Assembly: GCF_009914755.1 (NCBI RefSeq) | Contig: NC_060925.1 | Length of the DNA: 64,000 bases | Origin: the human T2T-CHM13v2.0 reference genome, Homo sapiens | Direction: 5' to 3' (one strand) | In this document: positions 17,307 through 54,455 of the stretch, piece by piece | Layout of the letters: each line of letters opens with the position of its first letter | Numbering within the stretch: position 1 is the first letter of the stretch | Notes under the pieces: model-generated | Databases searched by the model: none | What the model was told of the DNA's origin: nothing | What the model saw: the letters and a program-made list of their open reading frames with translations, nothing else | Program-made: the position numbers and the translations under genes

Positions 17307-19060
17307 CAGGGGTCAGCAAATTGTGGCCTGCAAGCCAAATCCAGCTTGTGGATTTTTATTTTTTTTTATATGGCTCATGAGAGATAAATGTTTTTACATT
17401 TTTAAATGCTTGAAAAAAAATTTCTGTGACACATGACAACTCACACTTCAGTGGTTTTGTTAGCAGTGTGACATTGTGAAATACATATTTGGTCTTTGTC
17501 CCCTTTCCTGGAACACTCTTGGAATCTCCAAAGCGTTAAGTGTCTTTTTGTATGCTAATCAGTTGACTAATGACTGGATGGTAATTTCAGGATGGGGGCT
17601 GGTCACTGGAAAAACCAAGGCATGATTAGAAAGTTGGGACTTTCAGCCCCACCCATTCTGACATCTGGGGATGGGAGAGGGACTGAAGGTTGAGTTGATC
17701 ACCAATGATTTCATCAATCATGCCTAGGTAATGAAGTTCCTATAAAAATATCTGAAAGATTGGGTTTGTGGAGCTTCTGGATAGCAGAATGCATCTATGC
17801 GACAGGAGGGGGTACACTCCAGCTCTACTGGGATGGAAGTGCAGGTGCTCAGGACCTTTCCAGACCTCATCCTATGTAGACCTTCATTTGGCTGCTCCTT
17901 TGTATCCTTCAAAATATCCCTTTTAATAAACTGGTAAACTTAAGTGTTTCCCTAGGTTCTGTGAGCTGCTCGAGAAAATTAAACCCAAAGAAGGGTTCAT
18001 GGGAACCCTGATTTACAGTTTGTGAAAAGAACAGGTAAAACCACCCAGAGCTTGCAACTGACATTGGAGGTGTGGGTAGGGGGGAAGTCTTGTGGGACTG
18101 AGCCGTCACTTGTGGGATCTGATGCTATATTTTTTACAGGTGGTTAGACAGGCATGCGTGGAGCAGAAGAGGGCTATTCTCCCACCCACTAGGAATGTTG
18201 GGTGATGGTTCAACAATTATCACATTGCCTCTCTAAAAGTGATAAATTGGCAGCTGGGCACCAGGGATAGTTCACTTGTTGATGGTCCACATCTGTTGCA
18301 CTGAAGTGTTAACTGAATGCAGACACCAGGGAGATGCAACTTCCCAGGCATGCGTATTAAGAGACAAAATGGCGGAGTATGACCTTCAGGGGGCACACCA
18401 CTGGAAAGAGGAAGAGAGCCGCAGGCATGTGTACAACTTCCTAAACACACTGCGCATGCTCACCTCCCAAGGGTAAGGACACTGCATGGGGGCAGGCCAA
18501 CCTAAGGGAAGAATCATGGGAAAGGGGCCAGCCTAAAAGCCCTAGAATCAAAGTTAAACACGGCACTTGATGTTGGTGCCTGCTTGGGTCTCTTCCAAGT
18601 GTATTTTCTTTGCTTTCCTGTTCTAAAGACTTTTTAAATAAACTTCCACTGCTGCTCCGAAACTTGCCTCGGTCTCTTTTCTTGCCTTATGCCTGTTACT
18701 CAAATTCTTTCTCCTGAGGCGGCGAGAACTGAGGTTGTTGCAGACCGGTACAAATTCACTGCCAGTAACTCGGATATCTTCCATCAGTAACATCTCCAGG
18801 TAGATAGTGTATGAACTGAATTGAATTAGAGGACACCCAGCCAGTGTCCACTGCAGAATTGACTGGTTGTTGAGAGTATAAAAAAAGCACTTTCTCCTCT
18901 CTATCCTCAGCCATACTCATTTGTTTACATTTTCTCTAGGGCTGCTTTCACATACTACAATAGCAGAGTTAAGTAGTTGTGATGACGACTTTCTGGCCCA
19001 CAAAGCCTAAAATATTTACTATCTAGCTATTTACAGAAAAAATGTGCCGACTCCTATCCT
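17307..19060. mobile_element. MER58 hAT element split by MER21 LTR (17467-~18870)
   Basis: caggggtcagcaaattgtggcc at 17307 resumes as ..ggcccacaaagcctaaaatatttact..tttacagaaaaa at ~18990; MER21 sequence lies between. Confidence 0.7.
18131..18792 (+). mobile_element. ERV1 solo LTR (MER50-like) nested in MER21
   Basis: ttacaggtggttagacaggcatg...aataaa...cagtaaca; the MER21 gatgcta|tctccaggtagatagtgt junction is interrupted. Confidence 0.7.
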
Positions 19061-51075: not shown

Positions 51076-52809
51076 GCATGTAACCAAAGAGTAACTGGCA
51101 CACTATAGGCACTAAACAAATGAATGGTAGTTGCTTTTACTAAAATACTATATAACCTTAATTTCTTTACAGTTAAAGGGTAGTTATCTCAAGCAATGAT
51201 AGTACTATTAGTATCATATTAGTACTGTCAGTATCACAGTGTACTAGTAGTAATAATACTAGTGTATTATTCTAGTCAGTATATTTATGATCTTATGAAA
51301 TTGATAAAAGTAGGCTCTCTGGGTTAGGCAGACTTAAATTTTATTCTCACTCAATCTTTAACTCCTCTTTCCTAGAAAACTAAGTAGCTCTTACTCTGGT
51401 AGCTGCTGGTGTTTGTATTTTTTTGCTCTCCAAGTTGAAGCAAGGAATGTACCTGGGGCAACACTAATGAAGCATAACAAACAATTCAAGATGAATTTGA
51501 ACATCAGTTGGTAGACTGCATTCTATAGGTTCATCAATAGCTGTGAGAAACCAGAAACCAAGGAGATAAAATGGTTAAAAGAGGGAAAGAGAAGCAGTGA
51601 TTGGGCTAAAAAATGATGAGAACTTAGTTAAGCAGAAATAAGAGGATAAGGCAATATGAAGAACAACATGAATACGAGTTTAGAAGCCGGAATGGGAATA
51701 GTATGGGACAATGAAGAAACTTTCTTAATGAAGTAGGTGAACTGTGTTAGAAAACAGAAATAAAGTTAGATGGATAGCATTATATTAGATTATTGAAAAT
51801 CTTGAATGTAATAGTTTAGATACGATAGTCTAAGTGCAAACACATGAGATCAGGAAATAGAGCAGTTAAGAAGTAGATATAGGAACGACATTGTTCTATA
51901 CTTATTATAAAGGCTAATTTTCTAAATACTAGTAAATTTTGAAATCTGAGTTACCTTTGAGTATTTTTTTCTATTGTACTTTTTCCTATAATTTTCTTAA
52001 GGATCATATTTAATAGTAAGGGTAAATATAATTTTAAAATTAGATACAGATATCTGAAGTGAAATAGATTAAATAACTAACAAGTTCAGGTAATATATTT
52101 ATCAAAATTTCCCCTTATTTTTAGTGTTGGCCAAAATATACCAGATAGAGGTACATGCAAATGCTGAATTTGAAAAAAACTTTTCTGAAAGACCTGGGTC
52201 AACTAAAGGTAACAAGCAATGTTTGATTGATTATCTCTGTATAAAGATGAATATTTGGTAGTGCATAAAGGCCGACTGAAAGGGACATAAAGCTGTTAGA
52301 AGTAAATCGAGAGAAGGGGAAGGGGAAGGAACAGAAATGAGGAGATGAAAAGCAGAAACGAAAACAAAGATATATAGAAGACATTTCAAAGAAAGCATTA
52401 CTGCTATTTGATGAATAATTAGATGGAAAATAAAGAGATGCAACAATAATGATTCTGGGGTTTTAGACTTAAATGACTTAGAAAGACTGATAAAGCCAGA
52501 AGGAAATAAGGATGTTAATATGTCAAAGTTGGAAGGGTATTTTGTAGTAACTTTTTTTTTGTTGTACAGAACATATTCTCCAAAAACTCACTGCCTGATT
52601 TAAATTAACCTCATTTGTTATATTTTGAGTCTTACAGTAAGTTCTTATTTTGGTCATTTGGGTCCTTGAAAACTTAATCAGATAAAATTTATTCATTTAG
52701 CAAATTCTTATTAAGCAAATATACAAACAGAAAAGAGCTCAAAAACTGATATTTTATAGCATTTTATTATATATAAATCCCAAAGGGAGTTTGTTGAAAA
52801 TGGAGGTTC

Positions 52810-53005
52810 CAGGGCCTCCAGGTTGGTGAAAACATTGAGGTACTAGGAGGGTACCCATCTGGGAAGAAAATGCCAAAGTGTTTCCAAGAGTCACCAGCAC
52901 AGACCTATTCTGTGTACTCCACCCGCCACTCTCCAATACCTTGCCCTATGCATCTCTTCCCATGAGCTATTTCTGAGTTGTATCCATTGTAATAAATCAG
53001 TCAAT
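52810..53005 (+). mobile_element. MER21-family LTR fragment
   Basis: ggttggtgaaacattgaggtactaggagg ... accttgccctatgcatctcttc ... tatccattgtaataaa resembles MER21 and the in-window MER21 copy near 17770-17940. Confidence 0.7.
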
Positions 53006-53341
53006 GTTTAATGGAATTTGGCTGTAAACATCAGAACACAGTACCTTTCAGGAGGCAGATCTTTGACTCCAGCTGTAATGTTCCAATTAATAATGAGCAC
53101 TACCAGAATGTTCTAGCCTTTGCTTTTGCTACTGAGGAGACTGATGAGAACCCTGGCCTATTATCTAATGTCTCCCTTGGATTTAGTCTCTACATCTTCC
53201 AAAGTGACCAACAGACCATAGAGAGCCTCCTGATGTGGCACTCAGGAGGGTTTGAGACAGTACCTAATCACTCCTGTAAAGAAAGAATAGGTTTGCGGCA
53301 GCGACTGTTGGAAACACTTTGGCACTTCTAAATTTCCACCG
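53006..53341 (+). pseudogene. Vomeronasal type-2 receptor (V2R, class C GPCR) extracellular-domain pseudogene fragment
   Basis: ORF 53011-53331 contains HYQNVLAFAFATEETDENPGLLSNVSLGFSLY..ESLLMWHSGGFETVPNHSC. This matches the V2R/CaSR-family motif YQxxLAxxFAIEEINxNPxLLPNxSLGF..WLSG..ETIPNYxC. The frame decays after about 53280. Confidence 0.85.
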
Positions 53342-53467
53342 GTGGCTCCAAGATTGGATGTGACAGAGATGGGATCTTTGCTTCTCCCATGCAATTCTAG
53401 GATACTTAACAAAACAAAAGGAGAGAATTATGTAACCCATAACAACAACAACAACAACAACAAATAC

Positions 53468-54455
<988 letters not shown>

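What the first reader, a model, noticed from the sequence alone, without database searches (positions are those of the whole stretch)
52797..53479. Fossil retrocopy of an LTR-driven, spliced vomeronasal receptor (V2R) transcript inside COP1
Seen in the sequence, in order: (1) MER21-like LTR sequence from ~52810. (2) LTR similarity stops after AATAAATCAGTCAAT (53005), at the position where MER21 carries a GTAAGT donor; compare the in-window copy AATAAACTGGTAAAC|TTAAGT at ~17925-17945. (3) An open frame running into an unmistakable V2R Venus-flytrap motif (YQNVLAFAFATEE..NPGLLSNVSLGF..WHSG..ETVPNHSC). (4) A decayed poly(A) signal (AACAAA ~53408) and an (AAC)n tail at 53441-53467. (5) Degenerate TSD candidates AAAATGGAGGTTC (52797-52809) and AAAAGGTGGTTC (53468-53479), with MER5-like halves outside them. 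Established: V2R genes are multi-exon and are pseudogenes in humans. Inference: an ancestral V2R locus was transcribed in the germline from a MER21 promoter, spliced, prematurely polyadenylated and retrotransposed by L1 antisense into COP1. This would be a snapshot of a lost LTR-V2R chimeric transcript. I do not know whether it is annotated.
Basis: partly seen in the sequence, partly recalled or inferred. Interest (0 to 1): 0.85.

Follow-up and report, generated by a model that had tools for sequence, protein, structure and literature searches.

The report
LTR-fused orphan V2R exon fragment
An intron of human COP1 holds a decayed, stand-alone piece of a pheromone-receptor (V2R) gene fused to the transcribed core of an old retroviral LTR, most likely a retrocopy of an LTR-started transcript, which makes it a curiosity and not a working gene.

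Summary
The sequence features are real. Window 52810-53007 is the part of an old ERV LTR that runs from its transcription start to a GTAAGT donor motif just after AATAAA. A copy of the same family lies at 17473-18487. Then come 65 nt, a whole class C GPCR (V2R-type) exon 2 at 53073-53341, its unspliced GT donor, about 80 nt that resemble V2R intron 2, and (AAC)7.7. A 12/13-nt direct repeat flanks the whole.

A second copy of this LTR family, on chr1:231.6 Mb, starts at the same LTR base and stops at the same donor region. I show that it is a spliced, TSD-flanked retrocopy of an LTR-started chr4 transcript. So the proposed mechanism has a proven precedent in this family.

Three claims were not borne out.
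- No V2R exon-exon junction is shown. Both sides of exon 2 look intronic.
- The tail and right repeat also resemble V2R intron 2.
- The MER5 halves were not found.

It keeps 31 nt that the direct copy has lost.

Verdict: partly supported, probably a retrocopy, of modest interest.

The parts
52797..52809 (.). Candidate 5' target-site duplication AAAATGGAGGTTC, abutting the LTR transcription start.
   Evidence: Edit distance 2 to 53468-53479. No random 13-mer of 1500, and 1 of 700 13-mers starting AAAA, did as well. It is also weakly LTR-like: the profile alignment reaches back to 52795 with low posterior.
52810..52853 (+). LTR part A. It begins at family profile position 316, the same base (within 1-2 nt) at which the proven retrocopy L006 begins.
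   Evidence: nhmmer alignments. L006 starts at profile 316, directly after its TSD.
52844..52911 (-). Inverted copy of the 3' part of V2R exon 2. It reads TQNRSVLVTLGNTLAFSSQMGTLL on the minus strand. It replaces about 30 profile positions of the LTR and overlaps LTR part A by about 10 ambiguous nt.
   Evidence: Inverted repeat 52868-52911 / 53284-53327, 36 of 44 nt. It is the only six-frame hit in the whole 64-kb window to a V2R exon-2-end profile (E 0.19). Alignment A2 shows that it keeps 31 nt missing from the direct copy.
52912..53007 (+). LTR part B with AATAAA at 52993-52998. It ends where the family has GTAAGT.
   Evidence: No LTR likeness follows.
53008..53072 (+). 65 nt of V2R-locus sequence ahead of exon 2, ending tctttgactccAG. 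Most likely the tail of intron 1; the tail of exon 1 is not excluded.
   Evidence: Three short ORF records from other sources (P0083, P0140, P0145) are homologous from about 53026 onward. Exon 1 tests were negative. There is no likeness to intron 1 tails of human paralogues.
53073..53341 (+). V2R-type exon 2 (N-terminal lobe of the Venus flytrap). The frame is open from 52996 to 53331. The last part has two frameshifts and a 31-nt deletion after about 53327. It ends KFPP, where relatives have KFPQ.
53342..53420 (+). Retained GT donor and head of V2R intron 2.
   Evidence: Collinear likeness from offset +6/+7 to intron 2 of the chr9 paralogue (2 of 500 shuffles as good) and of the chr19:7.05 Mb paralogue (10 of 500). 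blastn alone did not find it.
53441..53463 (+). (AAC)7.7 tract. Either a decayed poly(A) tail or an A-rich tract of intron 2.
   Evidence: TRF. The chr3:158.8 Mb paralogue has AACAACAACAAC at about +35 of its intron 2.
53468..53479 (.). Candidate 3' target-site duplication AAAAGGTGGTTC.
   Evidence: Caveat: it matches chr9 V2R intron 2 at +70 in 11 of 12 nt.

Best explanation
This is a fossil retrocopy of an aberrant transcript. In an ancestral germline, a solo or proviral LTR of an old ERV family lay upstream of exon 2 of a V2R gene that is now lost.
1. Transcription began at the LTR's own start site.
2. The LTR exon was spliced from the GTAAGT-type donor just after AATAAA to an acceptor 65 nt ahead of V2R exon 2, probably a cryptic site in intron 1.
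3. The RNA read through exon 2 without using its donor and ended about 100-130 nt into intron 2.
4. L1 machinery copied this RNA into an intron of COP1, antisense to COP1.
5. Later a 68-nt inverted, templated copy of the end of exon 2 was written into the LTR part, and 31 nt were lost from the direct copy.

Shown here: the anatomy, the V2R identity, the two LTR bounds, and the fact that this LTR family does yield such retrocopies.

Inferred: the splice, the L1 step, the 3' end, and the order of events.
For: - The LTR piece covers profile 316-473 only.
- Of 27 other copies, 24 run through position 473, one (L007) is cut there by an Alu, and two stop there.
- One of those two, L006, begins at profile 316 right after an 11-nt TSD.
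- The non-LTR part of L006 maps to chr4 in two blocks 1.73 kb apart with AG and GT borders.
- A full LTR of the family lies about 2.7 kb upstream of those blocks on the same strand.
- The family has GTAAGT at the break point.
- With the left end fixed at 52809, the TSD match is rare: 0 of 1500 random 13-mers and 1 of 700 AAAA-starting ones do as well.
- An A-rich tract precedes the right repeat.
- The V2R piece is an orphan: no other V2R exon in 84 kb, and no 7tm_3 or ANF_receptor hit nearby.
- Passages of PMC4419796 name MER21A among LTRs previously reported to regulate CYP19A1 expression in placenta.
Against: - No V2R intron is shown to be removed. The exon 2 donor and about 80 nt of intron-like sequence are kept.
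- The 65 nt upstream look like an intron tail with AG. The exon 1 tests were negative.
- The right TSD matches chr9 V2R intron 2 in 11 of 12 nt. Related AAAGGT motifs lie at +72 to +105 in two other paralogues, and one paralogue has an AAC run in intron 2. So the tail and TSD may simply be intron.
- A free local-alignment test of the two flanks was not significant (121 of 2000).
- The left TSD is weakly LTR-like.
- No poly(A) signal can be recognised.
- No parent locus exists in human.
- The LTR part is interrupted by an inverted insert, so the locus was rearranged.
Confidence: 0.5

Rival explanations
1. The copy derives from a properly spliced V2R mRNA. In this reading 53008-53083 is the end of exon 1 joined to exon 2 with intron 1 removed, and the LTR donor was spliced into exon 1.
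For: - The frame is open from 52996.
- Several phmmer alignments to full-length V2R-type proteins reach back to query residues 12-18.
- The spacing F-R-x-Q...C resembles the F.E.P....C stretch of some V2R-type proteins.
- There is no AG at the canonical acceptor position five codons before the Y of YQ.
Against: - The upstream 30 residues add 3.6 bits, and 138 of 1000 shuffles do as well.
- An exon 1-only profile finds nothing in the window.
- The Cys is Phe in the three related ORF records.
- tccAG|C at 53071-53072 followed by F/C-K/N looks like a normal exon 2 start shifted by four codons.
Confidence: 0.15
2. A DNA-level fragment with no RNA step. It is either a relic of a V2R gene that once lay here or a piece of a V2R locus copied in during break repair. 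The LTR remnant was already in intron 1.
For: - Both sides of exon 2 look genomic.
- The right 'TSD' and the AAC tract have counterparts in intron 2 of paralogues.
- The locus shows templated, inverted patchwork typical of repair.
Against: - The LTR piece is cut at both ends at the very points that bound a proven retrocopy of the same family.
- No further V2R exon lies within 84 kb.
- None of 7 sampled human V2R pseudogene loci has this LTR.
- The flanking repeat is rare once its left end is fixed.
Confidence: 0.2
3. A two-RNA chimera. L1 reverse transcriptase began on a V2R pre-mRNA and jumped to the 3' end of a short LTR transcript that ran from the start site to the poly(A) site. This is the mechanism described for chimeric retrogenes.
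For: - The LTR piece equals the stretch from the start site to about 10 nt past AATAAA, which is also where cleavage is expected.
- Such chimeras are described in print. I saw only the search listing and abstract starts of PMC2104539 and PMC4476161.
Against: - There is no A run at the junction 53007/53008.
- The precedent L006 shows that the donor at this point is used for splicing.
Confidence: 0.1

Closest known systems
L006, chr1:231.6 Mb: retrocopy of an LTR-started, three-exon chr4:171.81-171.82 Mb transcript
   Same: It belongs to the same LTR family. It has the same first LTR base (profile 316) and stops in the same donor region (profile 465-473). It is flanked by a TSD.
   Different: Its downstream exons are cleanly spliced, with a 1.73-kb intron removed. 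Its parent still exists in human. It carries no receptor sequence.
Human V2R (class C GPCR) pseudogenes, e.g. the four chr9 copies and chr19:7.05 Mb
   Same: Exon 2 is 39-44% identical at protein level. It has the same exon end (...YK.PQ|GT) and a similar intron 2 head. Passages of PMC2864566 state that all human V2Rs are inactivated.
   Different: The chr9 copies are multi-exon loci with a 7tm_3 exon about 12.5 kb downstream. The window holds exon 2 alone, fused to an LTR core.
LTR-promoted chimeric transcripts (MER21A and CYP19A1)
   Same: An LTR supplies the start site and first exon of a host transcript. Passages of PMC4419796 name MER21A among LTRs previously reported to regulate placental CYP19A1.
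   Different: Those are living promoters at their own loci. This is a dead copy elsewhere. That paper lists MER21A as primate-specific, whereas copies of this family are only about 60-65% alike.
Chimeric retrogenes made by L1 template switching
   Same: Two unrelated RNAs are joined head to tail between TSDs.
   Different: The join here sits at a splice donor that the family is shown to use. I saw only the listing and abstract starts of the papers.

Membership tests
V2R-type class C GPCR (exon 2 of the Venus flytrap domain) | Significant likeness to the N-terminal lobe of class C ligand-binding domains | tested here: met
   145 hits at E<=1e-3. A 36-sequence profile scores 71.8 bits. Pfam ANF_receptor itself does not reach the ORF, and PDB gives only T1R2a at E 0.83.
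V2R-type class C GPCR (exon 2 of the Venus flytrap domain) | Relatives have the architecture ANF_receptor + NCD3G + 7tm_3 | tested here: met
   7 of 7 hits tested. One of them, P0135, has a partial 7tm_3 fused to KRAB and zinc fingers.
V2R-type class C GPCR (exon 2 of the Venus flytrap domain) | Closer to V2R than to CaSR, T1R or mGluR | tested here: inconclusive
   In the reciprocal search the chr9 exon ranks the window (E 9.1e-9) above CASR (1.5e-7) and the mGluR loci. The label V2R for the unnamed hits, and the gene names for these loci, rest on my recall of motifs and map positions, not on a named reference.
V2R-type class C GPCR (exon 2 of the Venus flytrap domain) | Conserved exon borders | tested here: inconclusive
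   The 3' border ...KFP(Q)|GT is kept. The 5' border has an AG nine codons before Y, not the usual five.
L1-mediated processed retrocopy | Introns of the parent removed | tested here: inconclusive
   Loss of the LTR's downstream part at its donor fits a splice, and the precedent is L006. No V2R intron is shown to be removed, and the head of intron 2 is kept.
L1-mediated processed retrocopy | Starts at a transcription start site | tested here: met
   It has the same first LTR base, within 1-2 nt, as the TSD-bounded retrocopy L006. The start site itself is inferred, not measured.
L1-mediated processed retrocopy | Poly(A) tail | tested here: inconclusive
   (AAC)7.7. An AAC run also lies in intron 2 of a paralogue.
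L1-mediated processed retrocopy | Target-site duplication | tested here: inconclusive
   The match is rare with fixed ends and not significant in a free test. The right copy matches chr9 intron 2 in 11 of 12 nt.
L1-mediated processed retrocopy | Parent gene elsewhere | tested here: not met
   There is no other copy of 53006-53290 in the human genome. This is expected if the parent V2R was lost. Other species could not be searched.
MER21 LTR family | Match to the curated MER21 consensus | not testable with these tools
   No Dfam or RepeatMasker is available. What is shown is membership of one LTR family with at least 40 copies, including window 17473-18487.
Split MER5 element at the insertion site | Flanks match one repeat family and join up | tested here: not met
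   Flanks 52600-52809 and 53468-53680 have no other match in the genome or in the window. Old MITEs may escape these word-based searches.

The most novel reading that the evidence does not exclude
The element is a very old (pre-primate) snapshot of germline, LTR-promoted transcription through a V2R gene that no longer exists. The three short related ORF records from other sources would be its orthologues in other mammals. Reverse transcription would have been primed by a 12-nt match between the nicked COP1 target and the motif AAAAGGTGG.TC in the V2R intron, not on a poly(A) tail. That would explain why the right repeat looks like both a TSD and intron 2.
Probability: 0.15. Interest if true: 0.5.

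Novelty: new member of a known kind. Interest (0 to 1): 0.35.

Why it matters
If the retrocopy reading holds, the locus preserves the 5' structure of a transcript from a V2R gene that primates have since lost. It also shows that this old LTR family drove spliced germline transcripts at more than one locus.

In practical terms it is a V2R-derived fragment that the supplied RefSeq table does not list. Its 106-codon ORF already sits in protein libraries as a predicted protein. Its antisense strand supplies a splice acceptor to predicted COP1 isoforms. None of this points to a present function.

Tried and rejected
- Pfam on the ORF gave nothing.
- The word-indexed protein search over longer proteins gave nothing.
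- An exon 1-only profile and an anchored shuffle test did not show exon 1 sequence.
- Intron 1 tails of the chr9, chr11 and chr19 paralogues show no likeness to 53008-53085.
- I looked for LTR likeness after 53007 and found none.
- I looked for this LTR family in 7 human V2R pseudogene loci and found none.
- I looked for a parent of the sequence after the truncated LTR copy L054 and found none.
- The 17-nt direct repeat 53204-53220 / 53578-53594 is no better than chance (40 of 300 shuffles).
- The right flank 53460-53560 against chr9 intron 2 is not significant as a whole (127 of 1000).
- A scan for other right-hand TSD candidates up to 56500 gave only AT-rich matches.
- Rfam gave nothing.
- The ESM Atlas gave only sub-threshold ANF_receptor leads.
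- Paper searches for RFWD2 with vomeronasal and for VN2R with COP1 returned 0 papers. Two V2R papers gave no exon lengths.

Full report
WHAT IS THERE

Reading the window and listing frames shows a 111-codon open frame at 52996-53331 on the plus strand. Residues 31-95 are class C GPCR sequence.
- Pfam does not reach it. PDB gives only fish T1R2a at E 0.83.
- A full HMMER search of 1.84 billion representative proteins gives 145 hits at E<=1e-3.
- Of 7 hits tested, 7 carry ANF_receptor, NCD3G and 7tm_3.
- A profile of 36 of their N-termini scores the window ORF at 71.8 bits.

In the human genome the ORF finds 7 places: itself, four chr9 copies (E 3.6e-8 to 4.7e-6, 39-44% identity), chr19:7.05 Mb (E 0.038) and one weak chr9 hit (E 0.95). 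Each chr9 copy has 7tm_3 pieces about 12.5 kb downstream on the same strand. They are therefore multi-exon class C pseudogenes. The reciprocal search ranks the window (E 9.1e-9) above CASR (1.5e-7). The gene names I give to human loci (CASR, mGluR) likewise rest on recall of their map positions.

EXTENT OF THE V2R PIECE

The chr9 exon ends ...IYKLPQ followed by GTGAGA. The window has the same end at 53327-53341 (SKFPP, then GTGGCT). It is reached through two frameshifts and a 31-nt gap (alignment A2). So exon 2 is complete apart from that gap, and its donor is unspliced.

The next 80 nt or so align collinearly, from offset +6/+7, with intron 2 of the chr9 copy (2 of 500 shuffles as good) and of the chr19 copy (10 of 500). 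blastn alone did not pick this up.

At the 5' side, many unspliced genomic ORFs among the 145 hits show the usual acceptor: AG, one base, then five codons before the Y of (K)NYQ. CASR, chr3:158.8 Mb and chr19:61.1 Mb show the same. The window has no AG there. It has tctttgactccAG at 53071-53072, nine codons before Y.

Three short ORF records from other sources (P0083, P0140, P0145) share this nine-codon spacing. They are homologous to the window back to about 53026.

Tests for exon 1 sequence in 53008-53083 were negative. The upstream 30 residues add 3.6 bits, and 138 of 1000 shuffles do as well. An exon 1-only profile finds nothing. I therefore read 53008-53072 as the tail of intron 1. The tail of exon 1 is not excluded.

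No other V2R exon lies in the window or in the 20 kb beyond it. The genome-wide Pfam scans show no 7tm_3 or ANF_receptor hit near chr1:175.3 Mb. The V2R DNA is single-copy in human.

THE LTR PIECE

Window 52916-53007 matches many copies of one repeat. The call listed 40 scored matches out of 158 candidates.
- A 16-copy profile of 671 positions aligns window 52795-53007 to positions 301-473 (E 4.9e-31). The alignment is firm from 52810, which is position 316.
- The in-window copy at 17473-18487 is a full member.
- After 53007 there is no LTR likeness.
- The family has two donor-like motifs directly after AATAAA. The second is GTAAGT at the break.
- Among 27 other copies, 24 run through this point. 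One (L007) is interrupted there by an Alu. Two stop there: L006 (positions 316-465 only) and L054 (376-472).

A PRECEDENT

L006 (chr1:231.6 Mb) settles what such a truncated copy is.
- The sequence after its LTR core maps to chr4:171.81 Mb in two blocks 1.73 kb apart.
- The chr4 blocks are bordered by AG and GT, and in L006 they are joined exactly.
- The second block continues for about 685 nt.
- A full LTR of the family lies about 2.7 kb upstream on the same chr4 strand.
- L006 is flanked by GAAACACCTGT / GAAACACCTAT. The left copy abuts profile position 316, and the right copy follows a short A-rich run.

So this LTR family starts transcripts at about position 316 and splices from the donor just after AATAAA, and such RNAs were retrotransposed. 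The window's LTR piece has the same two bounds. That is the strongest support for an RNA origin. For L054 no parent was found.

THE ENDS

TRF finds (AAC)7.7 at 53441-53463. With the left end fixed at 52809 by the start site, the 13-mer 52797-52809 lies at edit distance 2 from 53468-53479. None of 1500 random 13-mers, and 1 of 700 that start with AAAA, did as well.

Against this:
- A free local alignment of the two flank regions is not significant (121 of 2000).
- The left 13-mer is weakly LTR-like.
- The right 12-mer matches chr9 V2R intron 2 at +70 in 11 of 12 nt.
- Related AAAGGT motifs lie at +72 to +105 in the chr19 and chr11 paralogues, and the chr3:158.8 Mb paralogue has AACAACAACAAC in intron 2.

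So the tail and the right repeat may be intron 2. One reading reconciles both: priming by complementarity between the nicked target and that intron motif. This is speculation.

The MER5 halves could not be found.

The LTR piece carries about 40-70 extra nt. Window 52868-52911 is an inverted repeat of 53284-53327, with 36 of 44 nt matching.

A profile of the exon 2 end (PNYxC to PQ, 104 sequences) has a single hit in all six frames of the 64-kb window. That hit lies on the minus strand at 52844-52915 (TQNRSVLVTLGNTLAFSSQMGTLL, E 0.19).

Alignment A2 shows that this inverted copy keeps the 31 nt that the direct copy lacks. It therefore predates that deletion. The junction with the LTR has about 10 nt that fit both sources. 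I read it as a templated, inverted insertion during repair or replication. An origin during reverse transcription is not excluded.

VERDICT

The best reading (0.5) is a retrocopy of an LTR-started RNA, spliced at the LTR donor and otherwise unspliced, from a lost V2R locus.

Rivals:
- a DNA-level fragment or relic (0.2);
- a template-switch chimera (0.1).

No print record was found in two searches: RFWD2 with vomeronasal, and VN2R with COP1. The supplied RefSeq table lists nothing here. GENCODE, HGNC and Dfam could not be consulted.

It is a new member of known kinds (a retrocopy, and an LTR-chimeric transcript) and of modest interest.

Noticed in passing
L006 (G000:C1:231606620-231609694), LTR core at locus 1649-1501, minus strand: A TSD-flanked, spliced retrocopy of an LTR-started transcript. 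The parent exons lie at chr4:171814813-171815104 and 171816835-171816943, and the parent LTR lies at about chr4:171819692-171820334.
   Followed up: yes
window 53404-53406, minus strand: The supplied table says exons of other COP1 transcripts reach 53404. On the minus strand the sequence reads ...ttctctccttttgttttgttaag|TATCC there. So the antisense of the A-rich V2R-intron/tail region supplies the pyrimidine tract and AG of a COP1 alternative exon. That exon overlaps the inverted-repeat arm.
   Followed up: partly
window 53011-53328, plus strand: The ATG-to-stop ORF of 106 codons is held in protein libraries as a predicted protein. P0001 is 99% identical, and the ESM Atlas holds it letter for letter. 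Nothing shows that it is made.
   Followed up: partly
L054 (G000:C11:72478950-72480300): Another LTR copy that stops at the donor position (profile 376-472). An inverted piece (profile 318-388) lies about 650 nt upstream and overlaps it by 13 profile positions. This may be twin priming. No parent was found for the sequence that follows.
   Followed up: partly
G000:C9 near 39.04, 41.44, 43.40 and 79.11 Mb: Four copies of one class C (V2R-type) pseudogene lie in chr9 duplications. In each, exon 2 is open for 103 codons and 7tm_3 pieces carry stops.
   Followed up: partly
window 53204-53220 and 53578-53594: A 17-nt direct repeat (16 of 17 nt) links exon 2 and the right flank. It is no better than chance in a shuffle test (40 of 300).
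   Followed up: yes
protein P0135 (representative library): A 941-aa record joins a V2R-type N-terminus to a KRAB zinc-finger tail. It is probably a merged gene model.
   Followed up: no
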